From Escherichia phage vB_EcoM_ESCO25, in sequence record OM386656.1: a DNA stretch of 64,000 nt. One strand, written 5' to 3'. The translations under genes and the position numbers were made by a program. Below, piece by piece: positions 16,466 to 50,102 of the stretch (positions are counted from its first letter, which is position 1; every line of letters begins with the position of its first letter). The notes under the pieces were generated by a model that made no database searches, was not told the DNA's origin, and saw only the letters and a list, made by a program, of their open reading frames with translations.

Positions 16466-16482
16466 TCTTTTCTCCTCTCTTT

Positions 16483-16541
16483 GCGGGGAACTATTCCCCG
16501 CTTCATGTGATATATCTTACTCTTTTTAAGAACTATGTCAA
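16483..16541 (-). promoter_or_regulatory. PeSL-like cassette (promoter plus 5' stem-loop) upstream of terC
   Basis: Minus strand: TTGACA (16541-16536), N16, TAAGAT (16519-16514), atatcacatgaa, hairpin GCGGGGAATAGTTCCCCGC (16501-16483), RBS gagaggag; same architecture as the plus-strand array at 38.3-48.2 kb. Confidence 0.6.
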
Positions 16542-37158: not shown

Positions 37159-37213
37159 TATTTTAACTTTTTTCATTTTTAGAACAAAGGTGTCACTTTG
37201 TAGCACAGAAATA

Positions 37214-37578: not shown

Positions 37579-37600
37579 CAAAAATTTTTATGCAGGTGAA

Positions 37601-37966: not shown

Positions 37967-38233
37967 TTATTTTTTGTTTTCTTGCCAGGATAGGACACCT
38001 AACCAAAAATACATATCGCCCCGCGCCCCTGGTGGTATCTTGCTTTCCCCGCCGCCACTGCAAGCCCATAGATAACCATTTGCGAACGTATCAAAATGAT
38101 CTATCTCTTCCACCTTATGATCGCCCAGGTTGAGAACGGTTTCAACCTTTAAGCCCGTTGCGCTTGCTACCTGGTGCACCGTGCCGCCTTGCCAGCCCAA
38201 TGAGTGCATAAGGTGTAATGTAGTATTTGTCAT
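37967..38233 (-). CDS. possible hypothetical protein in an otherwise non-coding GC-rich island
   Basis: 88 aa ORF with weak RBS (aaggg); no recognisable promoter; low confidence. Confidence 0.3.
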   Translation of the reverse strand: MTNTTLHLMHSLGWQGGTVHQVASATGLKVETVLNLGDHKVEEIDHFDTFANGYLWACSGGGESKIPPGARGDMYFWLGVLSWQENKK

Positions 38234-38419
38234 GATATCGCCCTTTCTTTGTTGTGCGCCCTGGTTGGCGCGGTAGAAAGATAATAGCCCTTTTCTTTAT
38301 ATATAGCAAGCAAAAAGAAAATAAAAAAGATTGAAAAATGGTTGACGTTAACCAGGCGGCGGCGTAGTATTCATCTTGTAGGGCGGCAATGGTGCCGCTC
38401 ACTATTTGGAGTTAAGATC

Positions 38420-38617
38420 ATGGCAACATTGCACATTGTGGCGAAAGCTGGACAAATCAACGTAGTGGTAAACGGTTTTACTGAGTTCAGTCACCCCCAG
38501 GATGATCATGAAACGGTTTTATCTTTCATTGATTCCCTGTTAGAAATGGGAGTCATTACAGAAGACCAGCACGCTACAAAATGCAAGCGCGTTAATCAAA
38601 TCGCAGGAATAGAATAA
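38420..38617 (+). CDS. hypothetical small protein (cassette gene)
   Basis: Start set at ATG after cassette hairpin (MATLHIVAKAG...); the track ORF began upstream of the promoter. Confidence 0.5.
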   Translation: MATLHIVAKAGQINVVVNGFTEFSHPQDDHETVLSFIDSLLEMGVITEDQHATKCKRVNQIAGIE

Positions 38618-38707
38618 AAACTATTGACAACAAACAACAACCTGATAAGATGTATCACATAGGGCGGGAAGTGGTTTCCCGCTCGTAACAGAAGAGAGAT
38701 TATCATC

Positions 38708-38980
38708 ATGGCATCATATAGCGCAACAATGATCGTAGCTGGCACAACTGGTAAACCTATGAGCGGTGGCGGATCTTTCGCTAATATCAATATTGACGGG
38801 CGTTTATCCCTGGACGCAGCGATCGCTATTGCACGGGAAACATTTAAGAAAGAATGTAATTTCAACAAGCAAGATTATCTCGGTTTCGCTATTGAAAAAA
38901 CCGCGCGCTTTGTTGATTATAAAAGCCCGAAAATGGTTGATACTACACTAAAAGCGCAAGATGTAGCGTTTTTGCTTTAA
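38708..38980 (+). CDS. hypothetical small protein (cassette gene)
   Basis: 90 aa ORF after cassette; RBS agagag. Confidence 0.5.
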   Translation: MASYSATMIVAGTTGKPMSGGGSFANINIDGRLSLDAAIAIARETFKKECNFNKQDYLGFAIEKTARFVDYKSPKMVDTTLKAQDVAFLL

Positions 38981-39056
38981 GGCTTGACATTAACGAATAA
39001 TTTGTTAATATGTTACATAAAGCGGGAATAGTTCCCGCTATTTGTAAGGTGGTAGA

Positions 39057-39314
39057 ATGTTTTACATCAAATTAAAAGGTCACGTGATCGCGTTCAAAGA
39101 TAACGCTTTTTACAGATTAGCAAAATATGCGTTAATACATCCCCACTATGTTTATATAAGGAGGCGTGATGAAATAAATATCTTTGATCAAACAACATGC
39201 GAGAACATCGAGATCCGCAAGGTTGGCGTACGTGATTATCGTACATCTTTCTACCCTTGCAAGGATTCAGCAAGTCTTTTTAAAGTATGCCAATTGTTGA
39301 AAAAAGGTGGTTAA
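39057..39314 (+). CDS. hypothetical small protein (cassette gene)
   Basis: 85 aa ORF after cassette. Confidence 0.5.
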   Translation: MFYIKLKGHVIAFKDNAFYRLAKYALIHPHYVYIRRRDEINIFDQTTCENIEIRKVGVRDYRTSFYPCKDSASLFKVCQLLKKGG

Positions 39315-39873
39315 TATGGGCCGCGAATATGTGATCCAGTCTTGGGTAAAACATGAAGCAGATGATCCGCGCATCATTCCCGATCATCTTATCGATGAAT
39401 CCACGGGATATAGCGGTGAGCAAATAGGTAACAGATTAGCACGTAGTAACGGCAACGTAAAAGCGCGTTATGTGCGCCCTGGTTGGCTGGCAAATGGTAA
39501 CGCTGATTTATCCAGTGCGGAAGATGCGAGCGACGGCGCGAAAGATAATCCTTTGTACAAAGTTGATCCGGCTTTTCGTGTCCTGGATGAATACCCCAGC
39601 AAGATAGCGGCGCTCGATCAGGCCCTGGAAAGTAAGCGCATCACCTGGACCGCTTACAACATGGCAAAAAACGTACTTGATGGTAAATTGATTCAAGCTG
39701 AAAGAAAATTAGCCAAAATTGCAGCCATAGCCCAGGAGGAAGACGAGGAGACAACGGAAGAGGAAGAGTACGAAGAGATCCCGCCGTTGTTGTGTGTTGA
39801 TGCTTTTCCTGATTATCAGCCGACAGAGGAAGAAAAAAGGATCGCACTAGAAAACTTTGAAAATAGTCTTTGA
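39307..39873 (+). CDS. hypothetical protein, acidic C-terminus
   Basis: 188 aa ORF; EEDEETTEEEEYEE tail. Confidence 0.5.
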   Translation: MVNMGREYVIQSWVKHEADDPRIIPDHLIDESTGYSGEQIGNRLARSNGNVKARYVRPGWLANGNADLSSAEDASDGAKDNPLYKVDPAFRVLDEYPSKIAALDQALESKRITWTAYNMAKNVLDGKLIQAERKLAKIAAIAQEEDEETTEEEEYEEIPPLLCVDAFPDYQPTEEEKRIALENFENSL

Positions 39874-39955
39874 CATATCGCCGCCACTGGCATAATATTT
39901 ACCACGTAGGGCGGCAATGGTGCCGCTCATAGTGAAATTATGCAAGAGGCTTACA

Positions 39956-40051
39956 ATGATTAATAAAGAAAATAGCTTGACGGTTGGAACGATTAACGCT
40001 ATCATTCTAGCCGTTCCATTTTGGATTGTAGTAGCGGCTATTATTTTCTAA
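39956..40051 (+). CDS. hydrophobic micro-ORF (31 aa), not on ORF track
   Basis: MINKENSLTVGTINAIILAVPFWIVVAAIIF, downstream of cassette 39870..39927. Confidence 0.35.
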   Translation: MINKENSLTVGTINAIILAVPFWIVVAAIIF

Positions 40052-40141
40052 AAATATTCTTGACAACGTTTTTTAATCTGATAAGATGTATCACATAGGG
40101 CGGCGGAATACTTCCCCGCCAAAACAAAAAAGGGTAACACA

Positions 40142-40504
40142 ATGAGCAAGCAAATCAATACTATCATGTTAAACCTGGTATCCTTCCGCGATGATATGAA
40201 AAATTTACCACGTGAAACGGTTGATATTCATGTTTCAGCTTATCGCGCCCTTATTGACATGTTACCGCTAAAACGTGATCAACATGCCGCTAACATGATG
40301 CTTAATGCTATGCTTAAAAAGATGATTCAAACGGATCTCATCCTGGCGTATGAGTATCAAGGGCGCTTATATGCTACTTACAACAAGGCGGTACCTGGTC
40401 TGGGAAGTACCGAAGAGTTGCACGGCTTAAACCTGGATCAGAACACTTGGGATAGTATGCGCCGCGTTATGGTATGGGCCGAAAGCGGTAAAATTTACGA
40501 ATAA
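40142..40504 (+). CDS. hypothetical protein (cassette gene)
   Basis: 120 aa ORF after cassette. Confidence 0.5.
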   Translation: MSKQINTIMLNLVSFRDDMKNLPRETVDIHVSAYRALIDMLPLKRDQHAANMMLNAMLKKMIQTDLILAYEYQGRLYATYNKAVPGLGSTEELHGLNLDQNTWDSMRRVMVWAESGKIYE

Positions 40505-40586
40505 AACGGTTGACACTGTTTAAAATTCTGGTATAGTTTATCACGTAGGGCGGCAATGGTGCCGCCAACAATAAAAGGTTAACATC

Positions 40587-40766
40587 ATGACTATCATTGC
40601 AAAAACTGAGATTATAGGTTTAGATTCGATCCTCCTGGCTTATGAGGAAACTTTAAAAATGTATGTAGTGACCTATGGTGATTATGTGCGTGAATACGAA
40701 TACATTGATCTTGCTTTCGAATGTTACATTCGCCAGGTCAATAAAGCCTATAACGATTATCGTTAA
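40587..40766 (+). CDS. hypothetical small protein (59 aa), not on ORF track
   Basis: MTIIAKTEIIGLDSILLAYEETLKMYVVTYGDYVREYEYIDLAFECYIRQVNKAYNDYR after cassette 40510..40566. Confidence 0.45.
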   Translation: MTIIAKTEIIGLDSILLAYEETLKMYVVTYGDYVREYEYIDLAFECYIRQVNKAYNDYR

Positions 40767-40863
40767 AAGTTTTAGTCTTATACTATTGACAATGAGTGAT
40801 AGTATAAGCATAATAACTTTTATCGGGAATACTTCCCACTAACCAAAAAAAGAGAGTAATATC

Positions 40864-41229
40864 ATGGCTATTAATATCAATGTTTCCTCTTATGCTACCC
40901 TGGCTGACACGGCTAAAATTGAATTATCCAGCATTGAGGCGGTGCATATTAGCGCCCGTCGTTGGTTTCAACAGTCCTACGGTAACACATATTTTTCTTT
41001 AATGGTTGACGTTGAGATCGGCGGTAAACTGATCGAGGTGGTTAACGTTCCGTTTCAATATGGTTATGGTGATCATTTTGATACCGTCGCCCTGGAAGAA
41101 TTTAGCAAGGTTATTAATATGGAAGGTAAAGAGTTTTCACGCGGCGCGTATCTTTCCCGTTTTTGCCGTGACAATGGGATCACTGTATACAGTCATGCAA
41201 GCGATGTTAAACGTAAAAAAGATTTATAA
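40864..41229 (+). CDS. hypothetical protein (cassette gene)
   Basis: 121 aa ORF after cassette. Confidence 0.5.
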   Translation: MAININVSSYATLADTAKIELSSIEAVHISARRWFQQSYGNTYFSLMVDVEIGGKLIEVVNVPFQYGYGDHFDTVALEEFSKVINMEGKEFSRGAYLSRFCRDNGITVYSHASDVKRKKDL

Positions 41230-41321
41230 AAAGCATTGACAGCACGAATAAAAAGAGTAAACTGTATTACATCAAGGCGGCGGAATGGTCCACCGCCTAA
41301 CAAAGAGAAGAGGAAAACATC

Positions 41322-41489
41322 ATGATCACTTTCGCTACCCGTGAAGCCGCTCGCAACGTTGCCCGTAAAGTTAACGCCGCCAACCTGGGCGCTACGCTTA
41401 AAGCCCCTGTAAAAGATGAATCAGGAAAATGGATCTTCCCTGGTCTGCGTCATGCTGACAAGTTAGGTACTTTAAGCCTTAAAAAATAA
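41322..41489 (+). CDS. hypothetical small basic protein (55 aa), not on ORF track
   Basis: MITFATREAARNVARKVNAANLGATLKAPVKDESGKWIFPGLRHADKLGTLSLKK; shares the first 15 coding nt and RBS context with the next gene. Confidence 0.45.
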   Translation: MITFATREAARNVARKVNAANLGATLKAPVKDESGKWIFPGLRHADKLGTLSLKK

Positions 41490-41563
41490 TCGTTGACTTT
41501 TCGTTATAGCGCCTTATAATGGGCGCTATAGAGAAGAGAAACCACTACTAACAAGGAAACATC

Positions 41564-41785
41564 ATGATCACTTTCGCTATTGTCGCCGTTGTCGCTGGTC
41601 AGGTTTACATAAACGATACATTCACCACAGAAGACAAGGCCGCAGGAGACATAACCGCCGTTTACAATGAGTGCAAGGCAGTAGAAAGGATGTTAGCGCC
41701 TTGTATGCTAATGAGTGAACGCCAGGACGGGATAACAGTATTTACTAACATTGAAACAGGGTACCAAATGGTAGTAACAAAATAA
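41564..41785 (+). CDS. hypothetical small protein (cassette gene)
   Basis: 73 aa ORF; starts MITFA, identical 5' junction to the previous gene. Confidence 0.5.
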   Translation: MITFAIVAVVAGQVYINDTFTTEDKAAGDITAVYNECKAVERMLAPCMLMSERQDGITVFTNIETGYQMVVTK

Positions 41786-41864
41786 AGCTTGACACGGATT
41801 TAATTTTTAGTAAACTGTTACACGTAGGGCGGGAATAGTTCCCGCTCAAAAAGAGAGAAAGACC

Positions 41865-42218
41865 ATGAAAGCACAAAATGCAATTAAAGAGTACATCCTT
41901 GCCGCTATCGATTTTAATGATTACGGTATTACAACCGAAAAAGAGAAGATCGCGGAATTGATGCGCCGTTTTAATTCCGAGTACTGGTACCCTGATAACC
42001 AATCACGTTTTAATTATAGTATTGTTAAAGCACTTGCATCATGGTTACAAGGCTTGCCATCAGATATCAATATCGCTTTCGAATATTGGGAAATTGATCG
42101 CCTGTTAACATCCTGGGGATACATTAAAGAGAATAGCAGCGATGATAAAATCCAACGAGAAAGGGAAAATTATTGGCTTTATATTGCAGGCGTGATCCTT
42201 GCTTGCTCTTATGAATGA
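41865..42218 (+). CDS. hypothetical protein (cassette gene)
   Basis: 117 aa ORF. Confidence 0.5.
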   Translation: MKAQNAIKEYILAAIDFNDYGITTEKEKIAELMRRFNSEYWYPDNQSRFNYSIVKALASWLQGLPSDINIAFEYWEIDRLLTSWGYIKENSSDDKIQRERENYWLYIAGVILACSYE

Positions 42219-42297
42219 TAAACCTTGACAATTTTACAAAACAGTTTAAATTAACAATATAGCGGCAATGGTGCCGCTCATATGAAGAGGAAACAAA

Positions 42298-42444
42298 ATG
42301 AATACATCTAATCGCGCAGAAAAAATTCAATCTTCCAAGATCCGCAAGGCCTGGAACGAGGAAGTGATCCGCAAAGGCGACAAGCGCAATAAAACAAAGC
42401 GTGGGAAGAGTGACAAATATAATTGGATGGATTTAGAGGATTAA
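42298..42444 (+). CDS. hypothetical small basic protein (48 aa), not on ORF track
   Basis: MNTSNRAEKIQSSKIRKAWNEEVIRKGDKRNKTKRGKSDKYNWMDLED; followed by a terminator. Confidence 0.4.
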   Translation: MNTSNRAEKIQSSKIRKAWNEEVIRKGDKRNKTKRGKSDKYNWMDLED

Positions 42445-42452
42445 CATAACAA

Positions 42453-42479
42453 GGGGCGCACCAAGCGCCCTTTCTTTTT
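42453..42479 (+). terminator. intrinsic terminator (copy 1 of a repeated terminator)
   Basis: GGGGCGCACCAAGCGCCC followed by TTTCTTTTT; identical to the copy at 48656. Confidence 0.65.
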
Positions 42480-42500
42480 ACATGTAGAGGATAAACAAAG

Positions 42501-42686
42501 ATGACTTTAAGCGAGCTTAAAACAGCCTACAACGCAACGTTAAAAATAGCCGTGCGTTACCGTGACGAATACGGTTTTATTGCGCAGGGCGTGATCCTGG
42601 GCTTTTCTGACGATGGTTTGATCTATGTTGATGCACATCACAATAAGGTTAAACCTGAAAACGTCATTAGCATAAAATATCTTTAA
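42501..42686 (+). CDS. hypothetical small protein
   Basis: 61 aa ORF; RBS agagga. Confidence 0.45.
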   Translation: MTLSELKTAYNATLKIAVRYRDEYGFIAQGVILGFSDDGLIYVDAHHNKVKPENVISIKYL

Positions 42687-42770
42687 AAGTGGTTGACACC
42701 ATAACCGGACCTGTTAAACTGTATTACATCAGGCGGGGAATAGTTCCCACCATACAAAAAGGTAAATATT

Positions 42771-42977
42771 ATGATCACCGCAAAACAAGAAAAAATCATT
42801 ATCGACGTTGCAGCCGTTGCTGCTATTGCTATTATTGGATCTTATTATGACACCGCGCGTCCTTCCTCCTTGCATGAGGTCGCCGCCGTTGCATCAGTTG
42901 GCGTACTGTTTTACGTTGGTAAACGCTATTTATCACCAATGATTAACAAGCTGACACCGTGGAAAAATAAAGGTTGA
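42771..42977 (+). CDS. small membrane protein (cassette gene)
   Basis: 68 aa; hydrophobic IIIDVAAVAAIAIIGSYY. Confidence 0.5.
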   Translation: MITAKQEKIIIDVAAVAAIAIIGSYYDTARPSSLHEVAAVASVGVLFYVGKRYLSPMINKLTPWKNKG

Positions 42978-43048
42978 TCCTGTTTTATATTGTGTTATAG
43001 TTATCGTGTAGGGCGGCAATGGTGCCGCGCCCTTTTGAGGATGCAATC

Positions 43049-43333
43049 ATGAGTAAAGCTAACACCGTGCTAATGTTTTCCCTGATTAATGATTCCGCTT
43101 ACTTGTCCAACATGACGCAGGAGGGTAACACATTAACGGCAACATTCACCAATAAGCTTGACCGGGTGATCATCGTCTCACTGAAAACAGTTAGTAAAGG
43201 CTTTTACTCGTTAGCTTATCATTGGATCACCGATACCGATGAGACAAGCCAGGACTATAGCACCCCTTTCCCTGAATCAATGGCACGGGAGGTCATCGCC
43301 GCCGTTGTAAATGATGGTTTGTTTACTGCATAA
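43049..43333 (+). CDS. hypothetical protein (cassette gene)
   Basis: Start trimmed to MSKANTVLMF. Confidence 0.5.
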   Translation: MSKANTVLMFSLINDSAYLSNMTQEGNTLTATFTNKLDRVIIVSLKTVSKGFYSLAYHWITDTDETSQDYSTPFPESMAREVIAAVVNDGLFTA

Positions 43334-43431
43334 AATAATTTAGAAAAAGGCTTGCAATCATTTTGAGATAGTGTATATTTAATTCATAGGGCGGCGGGAA
43401 TAGTTCCCAAAGCAAACGAGAGGATTACACG

Positions 43432-43551
43432 ATGAGCAAGTACACAGTAGAATACACGGTAGAGAATCCGGCAGTATCCGAAGGTAAAAAGATGACATTT
43501 GCCATCAGTATAATCGCTTTCGTTGTCACTATCTTATCAATCATCTTATAA
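43432..43551 (+). CDS. hydrophobic micro-ORF (39 aa), not on ORF track
   Basis: MSKYTVEYTVENPAVSEGKKMTFAISIIAFVVTILSIIL after cassette 43352..43408. Confidence 0.4.
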   Translation: MSKYTVEYTVENPAVSEGKKMTFAISIIAFVVTILSIIL

Positions 43552-43561
43552 GGTGCACACC

Positions 43562-43723
43562 ATGAAAACAACAGATATTATCAAAGAGATCGCCCTTGCC
43601 GCTGACGTTGAGATCGAGGAAGTGATCGCGCTCAATCTTACAGAAAACGATCTGCGCAACTATGAAGCGGAAAGCGTGAAAGCAAGTGGCGCGGTCCTGG
43701 CATATAATCCGGCTAACAAATAG
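43562..43723 (+). CDS. hypothetical small protein
   Basis: Start trimmed to MKTTDIIKEI. Confidence 0.45.
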   Translation: MKTTDIIKEIALAADVEIEEVIALNLTENDLRNYEAESVKASGAVLAYNPANK

Positions 43724-43803
43724 TTTGACAAGCTGAATCAACCTGATAAGATGTATCACATAGGGGCGACAAGCGCCCCGCCTAACAGAAGAGAGAAAAA
43801 ATC

Positions 43804-44082
43804 ATGACCATCGTTAAATTAACAACCGAAGAAATGAAAACAATGTTAACCACTAATTTACAAAATTGGAAAATTGGTGTTGACGTTGAAACAGTGTGCA
43901 AGTTGAACGACAAACTAACACCGGACGACATTGAAACGATCATCCGTGCAGATTTCTATGATGCTTTATACGATGATTCCACAGTCCTTGAAACGATGTT
44001 GGATAACGCTTGGATCAATCCCGATTTGGCGGCTTATGGTCATCTTGCCTTTGAAGCCATCCATAATGTTTATAATCGTTAA
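43804..44082 (+). CDS. hypothetical protein (cassette gene)
   Basis: 92 aa ORF. Confidence 0.5.
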   Translation: MTIVKLTTEEMKTMLTTNLQNWKIGVDVETVCKLNDKLTPDDIETIIRADFYDALYDDSTVLETMLDNAWINPDLAAYGHLAFEAIHNVYNR

Positions 44083-44092
44083 GGGGGATAAC

Positions 44093-44203
44093 ATGAATCC
44101 GAAAGATATGCAAGCATGGAAAGGGTACGACGATCTAAGCGCCTTGCGCAATAAGTCAAGCCGTAACCTTAGACGGTTGGAAGCAAAGAAAAAGAAAAAA
44201 TAG
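44093..44203 (+). CDS. hypothetical small basic protein (36 aa)
   Basis: MNPKDMQAWKGYDDLSALRNKSSRNLRRLEAKKKKK; RBS aaggggga. Confidence 0.4.
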   Translation: MNPKDMQAWKGYDDLSALRNKSSRNLRRLEAKKKKK

Positions 44204-44281
44204 TTTGACAAGTCCGCCTAGTCTGATAATATGTATCTTGTAGGGCGGCAATGGTGCCGCTCACAAGAAGAGAGAAAAATC

Positions 44282-44566
44282 ATGAAAATCACAAAAAGCC
44301 TGACTAATTATGCAGCACGTCGCGGATTATGTTTAACCGTTGAAAACTTAGGGAAAGAAGACTTTTTGTGTTTTTGGGAGCTTGAAAATGATTGCGAGTG
44401 GATGTTTTCTTATTCTATCTGCGAAGATCAAAACGGTTGTTTGTTAACCTGGCGCGGTAATATCTATTTACCGGAAGAAATTAAAGAAGAGTTACCAGGT
44501 ACGATCATGACAGAGAGACAGCTTAAGGAAGTGATCAATTTTGTAGGGCAAAACATTAAAAAATAA
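44282..44566 (+). CDS. hypothetical protein (cassette gene)
   Basis: Start trimmed to MKITKSLTNY. Confidence 0.5.
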   Translation: MKITKSLTNYAARRGLCLTVENLGKEDFLCFWELENDCEWMFSYSICEDQNGCLLTWRGNIYLPEEIKEELPGTIMTERQLKEVINFVGQNIKK

Positions 44567-44651
44567 TTTGACAGTAGGCAAACAACGTAGTAAAGTTTAT
44601 TACATAGGGCGGCGGAATGGTCCACCGCTCACAACAGAAGAGAAACAAATC

Positions 44652-44822
44652 ATGATCCCGACTATGTTTTATGTATCGCGCAAAGGTCATAATATTTTTT
44701 GGTCTGAAGATTTAAATGAAGCCATGACGTTTGCCCGTGATCGTGTCGCTATCGGTGGCGTTAACATCACCGTAACCGATGAAAACGGCATTGAATACTA
44801 TAACGGCAACGATGAAGAGTAA
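44652..44822 (+). CDS. hypothetical small protein (cassette gene)
   Basis: Start trimmed to MIPTMFYVSRKG. Confidence 0.5.
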   Translation: MIPTMFYVSRKGHNIFWSEDLNEAMTFARDRVAIGGVNITVTDENGIEYYNGNDEE

Positions 44823-44866
44823 TCAACAAGGCGGGATTAATCCCGCCTGTATTAAAGGGTAATATA

Positions 44867-45013
44867 ATGAAAACTTTCAACGCAACAGCCTCGACAATTG
44901 GTTATATTATTACAGTGCAAGCCGTGGATCTGGTAGCAGCAACAAACAAGATTAAAAGAATGATCCCGATAGGCAGTGAATTTTCCGTTTGGGAAGTAAA
45001 AAATAAATCTTGA
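44867..45013 (+). CDS. hypothetical small protein (48 aa), not on ORF track
   Basis: MKTFNATASTIGYIITVQAVDLVAATNKIKRMIPIGSEFSVWEVKNKS; preceded by hairpin GGCGGGATTAATCCCGCC. Confidence 0.4.
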   Translation: MKTFNATASTIGYIITVQAVDLVAATNKIKRMIPIGSEFSVWEVKNKS

Positions 45014-45089
45014 CGATAATTTGTTATCTGATAGAATGTATTTCGTAGGGCGGGGCAATAAGGCAACGCCCATTAATGAGGGTAGAATC

Positions 45090-45194
45090 ATGTTAGAGAA
45101 AATTTTCACGGTTGTAGTAGTTGGCCTGGCGTTATCGGTTGGAGTGGTTGCAACTATGGCTAACATGATCCTATCTTCCCACGGTATCGGTTAA
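45090..45194 (+). CDS. hydrophobic micro-ORF (34 aa), not on ORF track
   Basis: MLEKIFTVVVVGLALSVGVVATMANMILSSHGIG after cassette 45010..45070. Confidence 0.4.
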   Translation: MLEKIFTVVVVGLALSVGVVATMANMILSSHGIG

Positions 45195-45195
45195 G

Positions 45196-45420
45196 GTGAA
45201 ACAAATGATCACGAACAAAACAGGCAAAACGGAATTTTTACGCGGCTTACAAGTTGGTAAGCCTGAGATCTGGCATTGCACGAAGTCCGCGCATAATGAA
45301 ATGAAAGATTTCACCGCTACTTTACAACGTGTTAAAATATCTATCACACAGAAAAAAGCCTTGTTGGTAGTAGAAAACGAGATCCCGCAAACTATTATTA
45401 TTGTCGAGCGTACAGCATGA
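45196..45420 (+). CDS. hypothetical small protein
   Basis: 74 aa ORF (GTG start; ATG at 45205 is an alternative). Confidence 0.45.
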   Translation: MKQMITNKTGKTEFLRGLQVGKPEIWHCTKSAHNEMKDFTATLQRVKISITQKKALLVVENEIPQTIIIVERTA

Positions 45421-45803
45421 AAACAGAAATCATTAACGAAATCATCAACGGCTATAAAGAAGCCTTTATTTTTGCTGAATCAGCAAGGGATCATGAAGGT
45501 AATTTTATTGATAACTTAGACGATTATGATTTTTCTCCTAGCGCGGACGAACGGATCGCCCAGGATGTAACAGCCTTTATTAATGCTAATCTTGCCGCTA
45601 TCTCTGAGGCAATGAGCGACGGCGCAACAGCCAACCAGATCGGGAATGATTTACATTTTACCCGTAACAGTCACGGCGTAGGCTTTTGGGATCGCCCTGA
45701 AATATACACCACTAACACGGCGAACCGCCTAACCAATGCAGCTAAGTTTATGCCGAACGTGTCGGCTTACATTGGTGAAGATAATTTGATTTATATTGAA
45801 TAA
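45417..45803 (+). CDS. hypothetical protein
   Basis: 128 aa ORF; ATGA overlap. Confidence 0.5.
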   Translation: MKTEIINEIINGYKEAFIFAESARDHEGNFIDNLDDYDFSPSADERIAQDVTAFINANLAAISEAMSDGATANQIGNDLHFTRNSHGVGFWDRPEIYTTNTANRLTNAAKFMPNVSAYIGEDNLIYIE

Positions 45804-45884
45804 AAAGTATTGACACAGATCGCCAGTGTGCTAATATTTACCACGTAGGGCGGCAATGGTGCCGCCGATAATGAGGAAAGTAAA

Positions 45885-46184
45885 ATGGAAACTATCGCTA
45901 TTGTTACCGTAGAAAAACTGGTTGTTGGTGATGTATTCGCGTTAATGGTGCCTAACAGCAGCAAACTGGGTGCTTATGAAGTAATGGATCATAAAAATGA
46001 ATCATTTGGCGACGGTTGCACAATGGCGGTAAAATCTTTAAAGGATGGAATCATCCGCCAGGCTAACTGGCACAAAGGGAATCAAGTCGGTTTAATATCA
46101 GCTAATTTCTTGCCAGAAGAGCAAACGTTAGACCAACTATCAGGCGGTAAGACGTTAGCCGAACTACTGGAAACAGCGATCTAA
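45885..46184 (+). CDS. hypothetical protein (cassette gene)
   Basis: 99 aa ORF. Confidence 0.5.
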   Translation: METIAIVTVEKLVVGDVFALMVPNSSKLGAYEVMDHKNESFGDGCTMAVKSLKDGIIRQANWHKGNQVGLISANFLPEEQTLDQLSGGKTLAELLETAI

Positions 46185-46228
46185 TCAACAAAGGGGCGGC
46201 AACGCCCCACATCAGAAAGGAAAAGATT

Positions 46229-46465
46229 ATGAGTATTGCAACAGTATTAAACGCCGTTAAAACCGCTGAATCATCCGGCTTGCATGTTGAGCTTATAGAT
46301 CAACCAGGTGGCGATCTCCTTGTCCAGGTTTACCCGCCGAAAGTAGGGGATGATTATTATTGGGCTTATTCTGATACGTTCGAACAAGTAGACACGAAAG
46401 CGATCACGGCTTTTATTTTAAAAGCTATTGAAGAAAATAACTTTCATCATAACATCAATCAATAA
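46229..46465 (+). CDS. hypothetical protein
   Basis: 78 aa ORF after hairpin GGGGCGGCAACGCCCC. Confidence 0.5.
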   Translation: MSIATVLNAVKTAESSGLHVELIDQPGGDLLVQVYPPKVGDDYYWAYSDTFEQVDTKAITAFILKAIEENNFHHNINQ

Positions 46466-46519
46466 ACCATAAGCGGGGCGGTAACGCCCCATTAAACGCA
46501 ATAGGAAGAGGATAGGCGC

Positions 46520-46804
46520 ATGAAAAAGATGATCGCAGTAGTTGCCCTGGTTGTTGGTATTAACGCGCCTGTAATGGCGAAAGAGTTGCCAGAATCCATC
46601 ACGTTAACCGATATTAACGCAGTGAACCGGATCGGCGTTAATTATCGCCTATACCTTGCCGCTAAAACTTTCCAGGACGGCACAACAGAGTACTACGGAT
46701 TCGAGGGTGTCCGGTGCGGTGAGCTTGCACGCGACCTTAAGGAAGATCCAGACCTTGAGGCCATACCGATGACCGTAAACGGTAAAGCCCAGGTAAACCG
46801 CTAA
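46520..46804 (+). CDS. secreted protein (signal peptide)
   Basis: MKKMIAVVALVVGINAPVMA signal peptide. Confidence 0.55.
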   Translation: MKKMIAVVALVVGINAPVMAKELPESITLTDINAVNRIGVNYRLYLAAKTFQDGTTEYYGFEGVRCGELARDLKEDPDLEAIPMTVNGKAQVNR

Positions 46805-46806
46805 CC

Positions 46807-46941
46807 ATGAGAAAGGTAATCATCACAATGGGGATCGTAGTAGCAACGCTGGCGCTTATCCCCTTCATGGTTGAATATGTGCTGATTAATGTTGTCCTGG
46901 TAGTCAGTGACCTATTGGAAACGGTTGGCACCTGGTTTTAA
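46807..46941 (+). CDS. hydrophobic micro-ORF (44 aa), not on ORF track
   Basis: MRKVIITMGIVVATLALIPFMVEYVLINVVLVVSDLLETVGTWF. Confidence 0.4.
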   Translation: MRKVIITMGIVVATLALIPFMVEYVLINVVLVVSDLLETVGTWF

Positions 46942-46953
46942 GGAGTAATAAAA

Positions 46954-47145
46954 ATGAATGCAGAACAAGTTAGAAAGGTATTAGCAGCGTTGCGGTATCA
47001 CAACCATAGCAAGGTAAAAAATGATCCTGATTATGTGGATTCAAGCCTGGAAGAAGACACATTGCAAGCTATAAGCCATATGCAAGAATTGTTTAAGCGT
47101 ATGACAGAGAAGAACAGATCTGATTATATAGGTGACGAGATCTAA
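46954..47145 (+). CDS. hypothetical small protein
   Basis: 63 aa ORF; RBS aaggag. Confidence 0.5.
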   Translation: MNAEQVRKVLAALRYHNHSKVKNDPDYVDSSLEEDTLQAISHMQELFKRMTEKNRSDYIGDEI

Positions 47146-47154
47146 TCTTTACAA

Positions 47155-47186
47155 AAACAGGGCTTGCTTTTGTCCTGTTTTTTGTT
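47155..47186 (+). terminator. intrinsic terminator
   Basis: AACAGG-gcttgcttttgt-CCTGTT followed by TTTTTG. Confidence 0.5.
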
Positions 47187-47399
47187 ATGCTTATTGAACG
47201 GGCGGCACTTGGGAGCAGGGGAAGATAATCACCGGAAGACCCCGCTATATATTGATAGCTAATACCTATCAAACAACAAAACATCAAAGAGATAAACTAT
47301 CAAATCTTTACAATCCCACCTATTGACACCGGATCACGCTTACATTATTATTTATCACGTAGGGCGGGAATGTTTCCCACCTGATTTAGGAGTCATATC

Positions 47400-47633
47400 A
47401 TGATCGAACAAATTAAAAGCACTACACCAAATGTTAACGGTAATGTTTCTCACTTTATCAGGGATAATGAAAGAGGTACACCGTACGCCGCCGTAACCGT
47501 TCAACCTAACGGGGATTATTGGTTTACCGTGTACGGATCTTACTCTTTTGGACGTTCGGCACATGATAAGATCTTGCAAGTGGTTAAGCCTACTGGGAAG
47601 AATATCACAGCAGAAAAATTTTATAAAAAATAA
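47400..47633 (+). CDS. hypothetical protein (cassette gene)
   Basis: 77 aa ORF; RBS aggag. Confidence 0.5.
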   Translation: MIEQIKSTTPNVNGNVSHFIRDNERGTPYAAVTVQPNGDYWFTVYGSYSFGRSAHDKILQVVKPTGKNITAEKFYKK

Positions 47634-47711
47634 CTTGCTTTATAGCTCCTGTTAACTTATAGTTATTGCGTAGGGCGAGCAATACAGCAAGCCCACAAAG
47701 AGGAAAATAAA

Positions 47712-48080
47712 ATGAGCAAATCAGCAATTAAAGCACTTGAAAAAGCACAAGAAGTGATCGCAACGTCAACCACTGGCGCAAAGGTTAATCTCGTTGGTTA
47801 TCTGACAGATGAAACTATCCGTAAAAATTGGCGTAATGCTGATTTACTGGCTTGCTTATTGATTAATAGTGTCGCTAATGCTTTCCAGTGTGAAACAGCC
47901 GAGAGCCTGGAGGAAAACTTGTTTGATAATATGGATCAAGCCATTGAAACCTATATACAATCAAACCTGGATAGCTGGAACAGTAAAACATGGCCCGACA
48001 ATTTACGCGATACAACTGATCAACTGATCCGCCTTGCCCTGATGGTTGAACGCGATAACGTTCACAACCGCACAAAGTAA
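47712..48080 (+). CDS. hypothetical protein (cassette gene)
   Basis: 122 aa ORF. Confidence 0.5.
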   Translation: MSKSAIKALEKAQEVIATSTTGAKVNLVGYLTDETIRKNWRNADLLACLLINSVANAFQCETAESLEENLFDNMDQAIETYIQSNLDSWNSKTWPDNLRDTTDQLIRLALMVERDNVHNRTK

Positions 48081-48090
48081 GATTATACAA

Positions 48091-48112
48091 GGGGCGCACT
48101 AAGCGCCCTTTA
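48091..48112 (+). terminator. stem-loop/terminator, near-copy of the 42453 element
   Basis: GGGGCGCACTAAGCGCCC followed by TTTAACG (weak T-tract). Confidence 0.45.
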
Positions 48113-48220
48113 ACGTAAAGAAATGTAAATAATGCGCTATCCCCTATTGACAGGGGATCGGCGTTATATTATATTTAACTCACTGGCAGCAAACAACGAA
48201 ACGAAACAAAGGACAACATC

Positions 48221-48640
48221 ATGAACATTAAATCAAATAATCCAGCTTACTCCTTCGATAACGCTTTTTGTCACGGTAGCGCCGCCAAAGGCTTCGAAAT
48301 CGATGGTAAATTGGTTATCGTGAACGTTGACGGGGAAGAGGTTGCAGTGTATCCGGTAAACGATGTTAAAAGCCGTTTACAATGCCGCATGGATGTTACC
48401 GCATATCAGCTTGATCCGGTCCGTGTAGTTGCCCTGGTATTAGAGGAAGAGATCAAAGCAATGCATCACAGTAATAAGTTTATTGGTGACGCGCAGGATA
48501 ATATGAACGTTTGCCGCCATAAAGTTAACGAAGCATTGAAAGAATACGGTTTTAAGGATCTGATGATCAAACGTGATGAAAAATTCCGCTTTCGTAATGA
48601 CCTGGCAAACCGGATCTACTCAATCTATGAAGCTTTATAA
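48221..48640 (+). CDS. hypothetical protein (last cassette gene)
   Basis: 139 aa ORF. Confidence 0.5.
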   Translation: MNIKSNNPAYSFDNAFCHGSAAKGFEIDGKLVIVNVDGEEVAVYPVNDVKSRLQCRMDVTAYQLDPVRVVALVLEEEIKAMHHSNKFIGDAQDNMNVCRHKVNEALKEYGFKDLMIKRDEKFRFRNDLANRIYSIYEAL

Positions 48641-48655
48641 TCAACAACAAAACAA

Positions 48656-48682
48656 GGGGCGCACCAAGCGCCCTTTCTTTTT
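48656..48682 (+). terminator. intrinsic terminator (copy 2 of the repeated terminator)
   Basis: GGGGCGCACCAAGCGCCC followed by TTTCTTTTT. Confidence 0.65.
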
Positions 48683-48888
48683 GCCCGAACAATGTTGATA
48701 GCTTTCGCCTATGAAAAACCGACACAGAACAAAACTGAATAAATCGCGGTATCGAGCTAATCAACCAGCAAACGAATAACCATACCTCCCAGGGTTACAG
48801 GCTGTTAGAGAGCTATTTAGAGCGGTTAAAATCGATCAACAACCAACAACAAACCATCAAAAACACCCTTTTACCTCCTTTCTAGTGC

Positions 48889-48906
48889 AATGATAACCAT
48901 TATCAT
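48889..48906. promoter_or_regulatory. Fur-box-like palindrome
   Basis: AATGATAACCATTATCAT, close to the Fur consensus core AATGATAATCATTATC. Confidence 0.4.
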
Positions 48907-50102
48907 CTACCCATGATTATCTATGCAATATAAGCGCATAATTATAATGTTGATAATAGTTCGCAACAACTAACCAACAAACAACATAAAACAATAAGCA
49001 AACTAATCATAATCAAAGGAATAATAGCAAGATGATTGATAACGACAAACAATCAAACCATGATGAATACTAAGCAAAATAACGATAACACGACAAAACA
49101 ACCAACTAACGAACAATAACAAACGAAACCATTAAAATAATAACTATTAGCAAAATAGTGCCTGAATGAAATCATTACAAAACGAATCATTCACAGAGTC
49201 ATCATTAGCACGCTATGCCGGACACATAGCGAGCTAATAATAAGCCAACTACACCCCAACAATCATAACCATCGGTGATGGTTATTTCTTGTTACTGCGT
49301 AGCTTGCAATAATTGCAAGCGTAATGACGCTTACACTTATTGCGCTGGCTTATTATTAGCATTATATGTAATTACCAAGATCATAACATTAGCGCAATAA
49401 CAATAATCATTGTAATAATTATGTAAGGAAATAATTAACATGGCAATAATTATGGGGGCGAAATGTTACCGCCACAGGCGGGAATGTTGAGCAAGTTCTC
49501 TTAAACGTAAATAAAATCAGAAAATTCTTGATTTATTTTAGTTTTTATGTTAATAAACGTTTAAATAATAATCATTCTCATATAAATAATAGTCCGTCTG
49601 TCATGAGCGGCATTAGTTGACATTGTTCCGTCATATGATGAAGTTGCCAAGCCATTGATAAATAAGTGTTTGTGTGATTTATAATCAGGTGGCCCACCTT
49701 GTCGCTATGTTGGCATGAGCCTTGCATAAGTCATTGAATACGAATGATAATTATTCTCATTCGCATGATATTTGGGAATTGTCGCTGCGTGGACCTGACG
49801 GCCCGAAAATTCGCGTTAAGCACTTCTTACGTATGCGCCATGATTTTTGCCATATCATATTGATTCTATTAGATATTCTTGCCATGATTGCCATGAAACA
49901 GGGTGTCCCGAAATAATCTCTCCCCGTAGATATTTTGGGTTACTTTTTATACAAGAGCGGGGTGTCAAAAATAATCGGTATATATGGGATAATTGATAGG
50001 AATCCCCTATGATAATTCGATTGTAATTCCCTAAGATTGATCGTATGATGTTGGTGATTGATGATTGCCATGAAAGATGGCTAACGATGAGAGGAGATTG
50101 TC

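What the first reader, a model, noticed from the sequence alone, without database searches (positions are those of the whole stretch)
38340..48680. Array of about 22 promoter plus 5' stem-loop cassettes driving about 33 small genes, resembling T4-type PeSL elements
Nearly every small plus-strand gene in this 10-kb block is preceded by the same 60-bp unit: a sigma70-like -35 (TTGACA), 16-17 nt spacer, -10 (TAAGAT/TAATAT/TATAGT), a conserved (t)atcAC(a/g)TAGG, then a GC-rich hairpin (most often GGCGGCAATGGTGCCGCC or GCGGGAATAGTTCCCGC), then RBS and ATG. This matches the promoter-early-stem-loop (PeSL) cassettes described for hyperplastic regions of T4-type phages, which are thought to mediate modular gene shuffling and to stabilise early transcripts. 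Here they occur in a genome whose replication module is T7-like, not T4-like. Two adjacent genes (41322 and 41564) share an identical 24-bp RBS-to-start junction (aacatcATGATCACTTTCGCTA), a likely recombination footprint. Some cassettes place the -10 inside the hairpin loop (41493) or the -35 inside an inverted repeat (48147), hinting at structure-dependent regulation.
Basis: partly seen in the sequence, partly recalled or inferred. Interest (0 to 1): 0.75.

Follow-up and report, generated by a model that had tools for sequence, protein, structure and literature searches.

The report
Promoter-plus-hairpin cassettes that shuffle phage genes
A 10-kb block of a phAPEC8-type coliphage holds 22 near-identical units (strong host-type promoter, then a GC hairpin at the predicted start of the transcript), each driving one to a few tiny genes of unknown function. 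Related phages show that recombination between these units has repeatedly added, deleted and reordered the genes.

Summary
Window 38342-48220 holds 22 co-directional sigma70-like promoters in front of 33 small ORFs. Twenty are followed by a GC hairpin that starts 9-13 nt after the -10. The genome is a Phapecoctavirus (Stephanstirmvirinae), 99.6% identical to phage vB_EcoM_REC.

- **Selection.** The -35, the -10 and the stems evolve 2-6 times slower than silent sites. Pairing is 96%, against 66% when the arms are permuted. Orthologous sites often carry a different hairpin at the same position.
- **Not terminators by sequence.** None of the hairpins has a U tract, whereas three canonical terminators lie in the same block.
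- **Class-specific.** Other strong promoters of the phage lack the hairpin.
- **Recombination.** Four indels against close relatives are exact chimeric cassettes, with crossovers inside the conserved core.

The PeSL comparison is right for the shuffling role. The architecture differs: T4-type PeSL stem-loops lie upstream of or within the promoter and terminate transcription, whereas here the hairpin is transcribed as the 5' end.

My best reading is an early promoter with a 5'-terminal stabiliser or insulator hairpin, which also serves as a recombination module. The RNA function is inferred, not shown.

This is a new variant of a known kind, of moderate interest.

The parts
38342..38419 (+). 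Cassette 1: TTGACG-17-TAGTAT, hairpin GGGCGGCA-atgg-TGCCGCTC, leader and SD
38624..38707 (+). Cassette 2: TTGACA-16-TAAGAT (TGn), hairpin GGGCGGGAAG-tgg-TTTCCCGCTC
38984..39056 (+). Cassette 3: TTGACA-16-TAATAT, hairpin AGCGGGAA-tag-TTCCCGCT
39870..39955 (+). Cassette 4: TTGACA-17-TAATAT, hairpin GGGCGGCA-atgg-TGCCGCTC
40060..40141 (+). Cassette 5: TTGACA-16-TAAGAT, hairpin GGCGGCGGA-atac-TTCCCCGCC
40510..40586 (+). Cassette 6: TTGACA-16-TATAGT, hairpin GGCGGCA-atgg-TGCCGCC
40786..40863 (+). Cassette 7: TTGACA-17-CATAAT, weak hairpin GGGAA-tac-TTCCC (-5.5 kcal/mol)
41236..41321 (+). Cassette 8: TTGACA-16-TAAACT, hairpin AGGCGGCGGA-atgg-TCCACCGCCT. It is a chimera of the two cassettes that flank a 3-gene insert in REC, with the crossover in GTAAACTGTATTACAT
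41493..41563 (+). Cassette 9: TTGACT-16-TATAAT with the -10 inside the loop of ATAGCGCC/GGCGCTAT (RB49-PeSL-like layout) and no post-promoter hairpin. 51 bp are 96% identical in Klebsiella phage 05F01
41789..41864 (+). Cassette 10: TTGACA-16-TAAACT, hairpin GGGCGGGAA-tag-TTCCCGCTC
42225..42297 (+). Cassette 11: TTGACA-16-TAAATT, hairpin AGCGGCA-atgg-TGCCGCT
42451..42483 (+). Canonical intrinsic terminator AAGGGGCGCACCAAGCGCCCTTT + CTTTTT, ending the first transcription unit of the array
42693..42770 (+). Cassette 12: TTGACA-16-TAAACT, hairpin GGCGGGGA-atag-TTCCCACC
42974..43048 (+). Cassette 13: TTGATC-16-TATAGT (the -35 overlaps the end of the upstream gene), hairpin GCGGCA-atgg-TGCCGC
43352..43431 (+). 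Cassette 14: TTGCAA-16-TATATT, TAGGGCGGC then hairpin GGGAA-tag-TTCCC
43725..43803 (+). Cassette 15: TTGACA-16-TAAGAT, hairpin GGGGCG-acaag-CGCCCC. The cassette plus its gene (361 bp) are absent from Schickermooser
44205..44281 (+). Cassette 16: TTGACA-16-TAATAT, hairpin GGGCGGCA-atgg-TGCCGCTC
44568..44651 (+). Cassette 17: TTGACA-17-TAAAGT, hairpin GGGCGGCGGA-atgg-TCCACCGCTC
44829..44848 (+). Promoter-less GC hairpin (half cassette) before gene 44867. The orthologue of that gene has a full promoter plus hairpin in Vequintavirus DrSchubert
45010..45089 (+). Cassette 18: TTGACG-16-TAGAAT, hairpin GGGCG..GC/GC..CGCCC. It is a chimera relative to two Schickermooser cassettes, with the crossover in TAGGGCGG
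45810..45884 (+). Cassette 19: TTGACA-16-TAATAT, hairpin GGCGGCA-atgg-TGCCGCC. It is a chimera relative to two SKA64 cassettes, with the crossover in CGTAGGGCGGCAATGGTGCCG
46193..46208 (+). Promoter-less GC hairpin GGGGCGGCAACGCCCC between genes
46474..46491 (+). Promoter-less GC hairpin CGGGGCGGTAACGCCCCA between genes
47153..47192 (+). Canonical intrinsic terminator (AAAAACAGGGC...GTCCTGTTTTT), ending the second unit
47323..47399 (+). Cassette 20: TTGACA-17-TATTAT, hairpin GGGCGGGAA-tgt-TTCCCACCT. SKA64 has a single chimera of cassettes 20 and 21 and lacks gene 47400-47633
47635..47711 (+). Cassette 21: TTGCTT-17-TATAGT, hairpin GGGCG..GC/GC..AGCCC
48147..48220 (+). Cassette 22: TTGACA-17-TATATT with the -35 inside the inverted repeat CCCCT/AGGGG. 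It has no post-promoter hairpin
48654..48686 (+). Canonical intrinsic terminator whose stem-loop is identical to the one at 42451. It marks the end of the array
16466..16541 (-). The only full cassette outside the block: TTGACA-16-TAAGAT atatcacatgaa GCGGGGAA-tag-TTCCCCGC, in front of ORF 16465-15491 (annotated as an integral membrane protein in REC)
38256..38309 (-). Divergent promoter-like site TTGCTA-17-TATTAT followed by hairpin GCGCC-aaccag-GGCGC, in front of the 88-aa minus-strand gene 38233-37967

Best explanation
Each unit is a self-contained expression module for an accessory, probably early, gene. It consists of:
- an A-rich tract;
- a near-consensus sigma70 promoter, read by unmodified host RNA polymerase;
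- a start at a conserved pyrimidine-purine step;
- three unpaired nucleotides (R-U-A);
- a 6-10-bp GC hairpin at the extreme 5' end of the transcript;
- an unstructured purine-rich leader with a Shine-Dalgarno sequence.

The hairpin acts as RNA. The most likely role is a 5'-terminal stem-loop that shields the triphosphate end from RppH and from 5'-end-dependent RNase E, as in ompA and papA. It would also insulate the ribosome-binding site from whatever lies upstream in read-through transcripts. It is not a terminator.

Because about 22 copies share 9-21-nt identical cores (-10/discriminator, TAGGGCGG, hairpin), homologous recombination between copies deletes, inserts, swaps and reorders the genes. 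Each gene keeps a complete promoter, leader and RBS afterwards. The same recombination homogenises the cores.

Shown: the anatomy, the constraint on structure and the recombination. Inferred: the start site, early timing and the stabiliser role.
For: **Anatomy.**
- 20 of 22 leaders fold into a hairpin that begins 0-5 nt from the predicted start. 15 of 20 have z of -2.4 or lower against dinucleotide shuffles. The SD stays unpaired in all but two leaders, 43008 and 47358, where a small second helix overlaps it.
- The hairpin starts 9-13 nt after the -10 in 18 of 21 copies. The purine of the Y-R step sits a fixed 2 nt before GGG, even where its distance to the -10 varies.

**Constraint on structure.**
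- 96% of stem positions pair, against 66 +/- 4% when 3' arms are permuted among copies (maximum 83% in 2000 permutations). G:T oppositions outnumber A:C by 11 to 4, which fits pairing in the sense RNA.
- Substitution rates against five relatives are: -35 0.8%, -10 2.7% and stems 2.5%, against codon position 3 5.1%, spacer 5.0%, loops 5.9% and other intergenic 5.5%. Fisher p is 1e-6 for the stems.
- At orthologous sites the hairpin is often replaced by a different hairpin of equal stability (8 of 9 cases).

**Not a terminator by sequence.** No cassette hairpin passes the terminator scan on the + strand. Three canonical terminators do, in the same block.

**Class-specific.** In the 150 kb of REC scanned, the hairpin cassettes occur only in this block plus one other site. 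Many other strong promoters run straight into an SD.

**Recombination.**
- There are four exact chimeric cassettes.
- 57 of 91 breakpoints lie in cassettes that cover 17% of the block.
- Gene order is scrambled between genera, while one cassette stays 96% identical.

**Background.** RNase E depends on the 5' end, and a base-paired 5' end protects the RNA (PMC3997798 and references 92-95 therein).
Against: - No transcript 5' ends, half-lives or expression timing exist for this phage group in the literature I could search. The start site is inferred from its distance to the -10.
- With 3-5 unpaired nucleotides, the hairpin is at the edge of the range for protection. From memory, Emory et al. 1992 reported protection at 2-4 nt.
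- The 5' arm (TAGGGCGG) and the loop start (AAU) are more uniform among copies than pairing alone requires. That could mean a sequence-specific ligand rather than gene conversion.
- The RB49 PeSL stem-loop terminated transcription in a reporter assay, so the lack of a U tract does not fully exclude attenuation.
- About five of the 13 indels are not cassette-associated.
- The breakpoint statistic pools non-independent relatives. Cassettes also fill most of the intergenic space, so any gene-wise replacement would tend to break there.
Confidence: 0.6

Rival explanations
1. True PeSL-type function. The stem-loop is an attenuator or terminator that stops read-through from the upstream cassette, so each gene is expressed mainly from its own promoter. 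Its place in the 5' leader is incidental.
For: - PeSL stem-loops of RB49 reduced downstream lacZ as much as rrnB T1 (PMC2839356).
- 22 tandem strong promoters would otherwise pile up read-through transcription.
- Promoter-less hairpins lie between some genes.
Against: - A terminator placed after the promoter would also stop the cassette's own transcript.
- No hairpin has a U tract, and the tails are A/G-rich.
- The phage uses canonical terminators at 42451, 47153 and 48654 where units end.
- All described PeSLs place the stem-loop upstream of or within the promoter.
Confidence: 0.13
2. The conserved RUAGGGCGG-hairpin is a recognition site for a protein, phage or host. It could act as RNA: a tag that marks early messages for selective protection, shut-off or antitermination. 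It could instead act as DNA: an operator at +4 to +25 that switches the whole promoter class off together.
For: - The 5' arm and the first loop bases are more uniform among paralogous copies than pairing needs.
- The hairpin is restricted to one promoter class.
- The position overlaps the classical operator position.
Against: - Stems covary and whole hairpins are swapped for different sequences at orthologous sites.
- Loops evolve at the neutral rate between orthologues (5.9%).
- Variants such as GGGGCG-acaag-CGCCCC lack the GGCGG register.
- G:T pairs break DNA symmetry.
- No array protein checked has a recognisable DNA- or RNA-binding domain.
- Rfam has no match.
Confidence: 0.15
3. The hairpin has no expression function. 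It persists only as part of a recombination-prone, self-propagating repeat, kept uniform by gene conversion. Alternatively, it is a DNA-level hot spot such as a cruciform.
For: - Three of the four mapped crossovers fall in TAGGGCGG or the hairpin core.
- Hairpin types move between orthologous sites.
- PeSL mini-circles provide a precedent (PMC2839356).
Against: - Pairing is maintained through sequence change (96% against 66%). Stems evolve at half the neutral rate. Homology alone would not require either.
- The position relative to the -10 is fixed.
- One crossover lies outside the hairpin, in the -10/discriminator. That points to general homologous recombination rather than a site-specific event.
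Confidence: 0.08

Closest known systems
PeSL (promoter-early stem-loop) cassettes of T4-type phages RB49/phi1, PST/T4 and nt-1/KVP40 (Arbiol et al. 2010, PMC2839356; Comeau et al. 2014, PMC4122927)
   Same: - Repeated intergenic units of about 60-100 bp with an A/T-rich tract, a near-consensus sigma70 promoter, a GC stem-loop, an SD and a start codon.
- Concentrated in a hyperplastic block of small ORFan genes.
- Indels between close relatives bounded by the units, with chimeric units at the junctions.
- Degraded half-units present.
   Different: - Order of the parts. PeSL stem-loops lie just upstream of the promoter, between the -35 and -10, or over the -10, and act as terminators. Here the hairpin follows the -10 and is predicted to be the 5' end of the cassette's own mRNA, with no U tract.
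- No sequence homology.
- The host genome is a Stephanstirmvirinae myovirus, not a T4-like phage.
- Mini-circles were not tested.
5'-terminal stem-loop mRNA stabilisers of E. coli (ompA and papA 5' UTRs; Emory, Bouvet and Belasco 1992; reviewed in PMC3997798)
   Same: - A hairpin within a few nucleotides of the 5' end.
- Structure matters, not sequence.
- It is followed by an accessible ribosome-binding site.
   Different: - Those are single cellular genes with measured half-lives.
- Here it is a 20-copy phage promoter class, with the start site and the stabilising effect only inferred.
- The 5' arm is unusually uniform.
Host-takeover or early-gene arrays of large virulent phages (T4 early regions, T5 pre-early region, SPO1 host-takeover module). 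This comparison is from general knowledge.
   Same: Many small genes of unknown function, each or nearly each behind a strong host-type promoter and a strong RBS, clustered in one region of the genome.
   Different: A shared transcribed 5' hairpin as part of the promoter unit is not, to my knowledge, a described feature of those arrays.
Intrinsic (Rho-independent) terminators
   Same: GC-rich stem of 6-10 bp with a 3-5-nt loop.
   Different: No U tract. The element lies downstream of a promoter and upstream of the gene. Canonical terminators of a different sequence family occur in the same block.

Membership tests
PeSL (T4-type promoter-early stem-loop cassette) | Near-consensus sigma70-type promoter in a repeated intergenic unit | tested here: met
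   17 of 22 units have an exact TTGACA, with a 16-17-nt spacer and a TAnnnT -10. Nearly all + strand sites scoring at least 10/12 are cassettes. Promoter activity itself is not testable here.
PeSL (T4-type promoter-early stem-loop cassette) | [quoted passage not shown] | tested here: met
   The alignment consensus is AAAAAnnnTTGACA. This partly reflects the upstream stop codon.
PeSL (T4-type promoter-early stem-loop cassette) | Stem-loop placed upstream of, within (between -35 and -10) or overlapping the promoter | tested here: not met
   In 20 of 22 units the hairpin starts 9-13 nt downstream of the -10. Only 41493 (-10 in the loop) and 48147 (-35 in the loop) resemble PeSL layouts. PeSL positions are taken from PMC2839356 and PMC4122927.
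PeSL (T4-type promoter-early stem-loop cassette) | Stem-loop works as a transcription terminator or attenuator | tested here: inconclusive
   No cassette hairpin meets the stem-plus-T-run criterion on the + strand.
PeSL (T4-type promoter-early stem-loop cassette) | SD and start codon at the 3' end of the unit | tested here: met
   A purine-rich leader with an SD lies 20-28 nt after the hairpin, followed by ATG.
PeSL (T4-type promoter-early stem-loop cassette) | Concentrated in hyperplastic regions next to ORFans | tested here: met
   Coverage by relatives falls from 100% to 25% while matching parts stay 87-97% identical. 20 of 20 proteins have unknown function, and 10 of 10 have no Pfam domain. 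Genome-wide, cassettes are confined to this block plus one site.
PeSL (T4-type promoter-early stem-loop cassette) | Indels between close relatives bounded by the units, leaving chimeric units | tested here: met
   Four clean chimeras at c41236, c45010, c45810 and c47323/c47635. Breakpoints are enriched in cassettes, 57 of 91 against 17%.
PeSL (T4-type promoter-early stem-loop cassette) | Formation of excised mini-circles | not testable with these tools
   Needs inverse PCR on infected cells or virion DNA.
PeSL (T4-type promoter-early stem-loop cassette) | Occurs in T4-like myoviruses | tested here: not met
   The closest records are Phapecoctavirus, Stephanstirmvirinae.
5'-terminal stem-loop mRNA stabiliser (ompA/papA type) | Hairpin no more than a few (2-4) unpaired nucleotides from the 5' end | tested here: inconclusive
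   3-5 unpaired nucleotides if transcription starts 7-8 nt after the -10. The conserved R sits exactly 2 nt before GGG. The start is not mapped.
5'-terminal stem-loop mRNA stabiliser (ompA/papA type) | Structure rather than sequence is what is conserved | tested here: met
   Covariation of 96% against 66%. Whole-hairpin swaps keep the stability. Stems evolve slower than loops.
5'-terminal stem-loop mRNA stabiliser (ompA/papA type) | Lengthens mRNA half-life in an RNase E/RppH-dependent way | not testable with these tools
   Needs rifampicin-chase measurements.
Intrinsic terminator | GC stem-loop followed immediately by a U tract | tested here: not met
   Tails after the hairpins are A/G-rich. 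None is listed by the scan on the + strand.
Any curated RNA family (Rfam 15) | Match to a covariance model | tested here: not met
   Only one sub-threshold chance hit (RF03142, 18.8 bits against a gathering score of 37.8) in 37500-49500.

The most novel reading that the evidence does not exclude
The uniform 5' end R-U-A-GGGCGG-hairpin could be a molecular tag read by a phage or host factor. The tag would set this class of about 22 early messages apart from host mRNA and from the phage's other sigma70 transcripts. It could exempt them from a phage-induced mRNA purge, or allow their collective shut-off at the early-to-middle switch. The same cassette would be the unit of a mini-circle-type gene-mobility system shared across Stephanstirmvirinae and Vequintavirinae.
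Probability: 0.12. Interest if true: 0.75.

Novelty: new variant of a known kind. Interest (0 to 1): 0.5.

Why it matters
**Generality of the principle.** Repeated regulatory cassettes that both express accessory genes and serve as the recombination substrate that shuffles them had been described only for T4-like phages. This finding shows the principle in an unrelated lineage of large coliphages (phAPEC8/phi92-like, extending to rV5-like). It arose independently and has a different internal order. That suggests a general solution for keeping a fast-turnover accessory gene pool expressible.

**A testable leader.** The reversed order, promoter then hairpin, gives a natural library of about 20 strong E. 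coli promoters with a standard structured 5' leader. This allows a clean test of 5'-hairpin effects on mRNA life and translation, and may be useful as expression parts.

**Annotation.** These hairpins should not be labelled terminators. Gene content in this block should be expected to vary cassette by cassette.

Tried and rejected
- **RNAalifold on a MAFFT alignment.** On the 21 cassettes it returned no structure, because the 3' arms fall out of register. I replaced it with a loop-anchored pair count and a permutation control.
- **Column-wise pair comparison between orthologues.** It gave 23 'broken' pairs. Inspection showed these are mostly whole-hairpin replacements with a shifted register, so the count is invalid.
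- **Covariance model.** I did not build one, for the same alignment reason.
- **Rfam.** It found nothing.
- **Composite-pattern scan of IMG/VR.** It returned 63 loci. About 35 of them are one unrelated conserved promoter without a hairpin in 40-48-kb contigs, and roughly 40 chance hits are expected for a pattern of this size. Only the multi-copy hits in ~150-kb contigs count.
- **A second window pattern.** It was badly designed and is uninformative.
- **First breakpoint run.** It pooled several loci from one file and was redone.
- **Literature searches.** Searches for promoter or transcript mapping in phAPEC8, phi92 and rV5 phages found only generic promoter lists for rV5 and no 5'-end data.
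- **RNase III processing sites.** Considered and rejected. The stems of 6-10 bp are too short.
- **N4-type hairpin promoters.** Considered and rejected. Clear sigma70 hexamers are present.
- **Antisense terminators.** Considered and rejected. No T run follows on the minus strand, apart from one marginal call at 42278.

Full report
**What the window is.** The 10.3-kb region is 99.6% identical over its full length to Escherichia phages vB_EcoM_REC and ESCO37, and 95-97% identical to tuntematon, Mt1B1_P17 and others. All are ~150-kb myoviruses of the genus Phapecoctavirus, subfamily Stephanstirmvirinae (the phAPEC8/phi92 group). Nearly every gene in the region is annotated 'hypothetical' in those records, and the few named products are unreliable transfers. 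I checked 20 array proteins, and all fall in PHROG families of unknown function. The ten largest proteins tested (nine from the array plus the 88-aa divergent gene) have no Pfam domain. The block lies between two AT-rich non-coding regions, 37160-37960 and 48680-50100.

**Observation check.** Parsing the sequence gives 33 plus-strand ORFs and 22 intergenic units. Each unit starts right at, or overlapping, the stop codon of the preceding gene. It has a -35 (TTGACA exact in 17 of 22), a spacer of 16 nt (15 units) or 17 nt (7 units), often a TGn extended -10, and a TAnnnT -10.

- The consensus scan puts almost all sites scoring at least 10/12 on the + strand at these positions, with only two on the - strand.
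- A strict search for a promoter followed by a perfect GC hairpin gives 15 + strand hits in the block. It expects 1.4 for the whole window on both strands.
- TAGGGCGG occurs 13 times, all on the + strand and all within 38379-47367, where shuffles expect 0.51.
- The smaller claims hold. There is a 23-nt identical RBS-to-start junction at genes 41322 and 41564. The -10 lies in a hairpin loop at 41493. The -35 lies in an inverted repeat at 48147.
- Two corrections apply. Only 20 of 22 units have the post-promoter hairpin, and one more full copy lies at 16541 on the minus strand.

**Anatomy.** The alignment consensus is AAAAAnnnTTGACA-N16-TAAnAT-nTATCACrTAGGGCGGnAATrGT....

- The hairpin begins 9-13 nt after the -10 in 18 of 21 copies.
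- A pyrimidine-purine step lies 7-8 nt after the -10. Its purine is always exactly 2 nt before the GGG of the stem, even in the four units whose discriminator is one base shorter. This fits a start at that purine and a transcript that begins R-U-A followed by the hairpin. The start site is an inference.
- All 20 leaders fold with the hairpin at the extreme 5' end. Energies run from -5.5 to -15.8 kcal/mol, and 15 of 20 have z of -2.4 or lower against dinucleotide shuffles. The purine-rich stretch carrying the Shine-Dalgarno sequence stays unpaired in all but two leaders (43008 and 47358), where a small second helix overlaps it.
- Rfam has no matching family.

**Is the hairpin under selection, and at what level?**

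- Among the paralogous copies, stems differ (GGCGGCA/TGCCGCC, GCGGGAA/TTCCCGC, GGGGCG/CGCCCC and others) yet 96% of positions pair. Permuting the 3' arms among copies gives 66 +/- 4%, with a maximum of 83% in 2000 permutations. G:T oppositions outnumber A:C by 11 to 4, as expected if pairing matters in the sense-strand RNA.
- Between orthologous cassettes of five close relatives, substitution rates are 0.8% for the -35, 2.7% for the -10 and 2.5% for the stems. They are 5.1% at codon position 3, 5.0% in spacers, 5.9% in loops and 5.5% in other intergenic DNA. Fisher p is 6e-9, 4e-3 and 1e-6 respectively.
- A column-wise count of pair changes between orthologues was misleading. At many orthologous sites the whole hairpin has been exchanged for another member of the family. 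In 8 of 9 such cases a hairpin of -11 to -17 kcal/mol sits at the same place.
That is clearly not the case. In Klebsiella phage 05F01, 51 bp of cassette 41493 are 96% identical. The shared array proteins there are 30-63% identical, and their order is scrambled.

**Not a terminator by sequence.** The tails after the hairpins are A/G-rich. None passes the stem-plus-T-run scan on the + strand. Three canonical terminators do (42451, 47153, 48654), and they divide the array into three units.

**The hairpin marks one promoter class.** I scanned 150 kb of REC on both strands. The cassette type occurs only in this block (about 22 copies) and once elsewhere (REC 122221, equal to window 16541). Many other strong promoter-like sites directly upstream of genes run straight into an SD without a hairpin.

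**Shuffling.** Against five close relatives I counted 13 indel events. Four are exact cassette-to-cassette recombinants.

1. Window cassette 41236 is identical to the cassette left of a three-gene, 875-bp insert in REC up to GTAAACTGTATTACAT. From that segment onward it is identical to the cassette right of the insert.
2. Cassette 45010 is a chimera of two Schickermooser cassettes that flank an extra 214 bp, with the crossover in TAGGGCGG.
3. Cassette 45810 is a chimera of two SKA64 cassettes that flank an extra gene, with the crossover in the 21-nt CGTAGGGCGGCAATGGTGCCG.
4. SKA64 carries a single chimera of window cassettes 47323 and 47635 and lacks gene 47400-47633, with the crossover in CGTAGGGCG.

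- Three or four further events have one boundary in a cassette. About five are unrelated to cassettes.
- Over nine relatives, 57 of 91 internal homology breakpoints lie in cassettes, which cover 17% of the block. The events are not independent, and cassettes fill most of the intergenic space, so I treat this figure as supportive only.
- Crossovers fall wherever a 9-21-nt identical core is shared. That points to ordinary homologous recombination rather than a site-specific enzyme.
- Gene order within the array is permuted in Eryne and scrambled in 05F01.
- For one gene (44867), the orthologue has a promoter plus hairpin in DrSchubert, a promoter only in an IMG/VR contig, and a hairpin only in the window. 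Half cassettes therefore exist here, as described for PeSLs.

**Distribution.** The same architecture is present in Justusliebigvirus (muut, alia), in Vequintavirus DrSchubert (Bas50), and partly in Klebsiella phage 05F01. A composite-pattern scan of IMG/VR finds multi-copy, hairpin-bearing matches only in ~150-kb contigs of this group. Most single hits are an unrelated promoter.

**Comparison with PeSLs.** The PeSL papers describe an AT-rich tract, a sigma70-like promoter, a stem-loop, an SD and a start codon, clustered in hyperplastic regions. They report recombination between units and excised mini-circles.

- The PeSL stem-loop lies between the -35 and -10 or over the -10 in RB49/phi1. It lies just upstream of the promoter in PST and nt-1. 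It terminates transcription in a reporter assay (PMC2839356, PMC4122927).
- The elements here share the composition, the genomic setting and the recombination role.
- They fail the positional feature in 20 of 22 units, show no terminator signature, have no sequence homology, and occur outside the T4-like phages.
- I therefore call them an analogous, independently arisen variant rather than members of the family.
- I found no earlier description for this phage group. The rV5 paper lists 33 sigma70 promoters and 20 terminators without noting such a unit (PMC3606486). My search covers open-access text only.

**Mechanism.** The shown steps are the anatomy, the structural constraint, the class specificity and the recombinants. 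The inferred steps are as follows.

- Host RNA polymerase starts at the conserved purine.
- The nascent 5' hairpin leaves about three unpaired nucleotides. This hinders RppH and 5'-end-dependent RNase E attack (the principle is reviewed in PMC3997798; the 2-4-nt rule is from my memory of Emory et al. 1992).
- The hairpin also isolates the open SD from upstream sequence in read-through transcripts.
- Early timing is inferred from the near-consensus host-type promoters.

The rivals are an attenuator, a binding site for a regulator, and a purely recombinational repeat. They are weighed in their own sections of this report. None is excluded.

**Verdict.** This is a real and statistically overwhelming feature. 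It is a new variant of a known kind, of moderate interest.

Noticed in passing
window 16466-16541 (-): A single full cassette (TTGACA-16-TAAGAT, hairpin GCGGGGAA-tag-TTCCCCGC) sits far from the array, in front of a 324-aa ORF. REC annotates that ORF as an integral membrane protein, within the replication and nucleotide-metabolism region.
   Followed up: partly
window 38256-38309 (-) and gene 37967-38233 (-): A divergent weaker promoter-like site with its own, unrelated 5' hairpin (GCGCC-aaccag-GGCGC) precedes an 88-aa minus-strand gene. That gene is conserved across the group, falls in a PHROG of unknown function and has no Pfam domain.
   Followed up: partly
window 37598-37713 and 48886-49770: Both non-coding flanks of the array carry clusters of words resembling the E. 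coli Fur box (at least 13/19 matches to GATAATGATAATCATTATC). There are 4 on the left and about 10 on the right. The whole window has 43, against 17.5 expected. The left cluster lies largely within a 29-bp tandem repeat of 2.9 copies. This could be iron-responsive control, iterons or coincidence in AT-rich DNA.
   Followed up: partly
window 42451-42473, 48654-48676, 48088-48110: The terminator stem-loop AAGGGGCGCACCAAGCGCCCTTT is repeated identically twice, and a one-base loop variant occurs a third time. This is a second repeated regulatory element in the block.
   Followed up: no
window 44829-44848, 46193-46208, 46474-46491: GC hairpins without a promoter lie between genes, two of them preceded by TCAACAA(A). 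They look like half cassettes. They score as terminator-like only on the minus strand.
   Followed up: partly
window gene starts 38420-48221: 16 of 33 genes are preceded by ATC directly before the ATG, and seven begin ATGATC (M-I). The sequence uniformity of the cassette therefore runs into the first codons.
   Followed up: no
window 40945-41229: Part of gene 40864-41229 matches jumbo coliphages TH47 and SP27 at about 81% nucleotide identity. Individual array genes are therefore shared with very distant phage groups.
   Followed up: no
window 50105-50805: Two adjacent ORFs just right of the non-coding region look like tandem paralogues by eye. They share stretches such as ttccgttgag...cttggcttgc and gg(a/g)ctacaat.
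   Followed up: no
L013, L015-L019 and about 30 other IMG/VR loci: A family of 40-48-kb viral contigs, mostly from one metagenome, shares one conserved promoter, TTGACA-N17-TATAAT/TATACT...TTAGGGCGGAACTTACAAG, with no hairpin. It is unrelated to the cassette and matched the search pattern by coincidence.
   Followed up: partly
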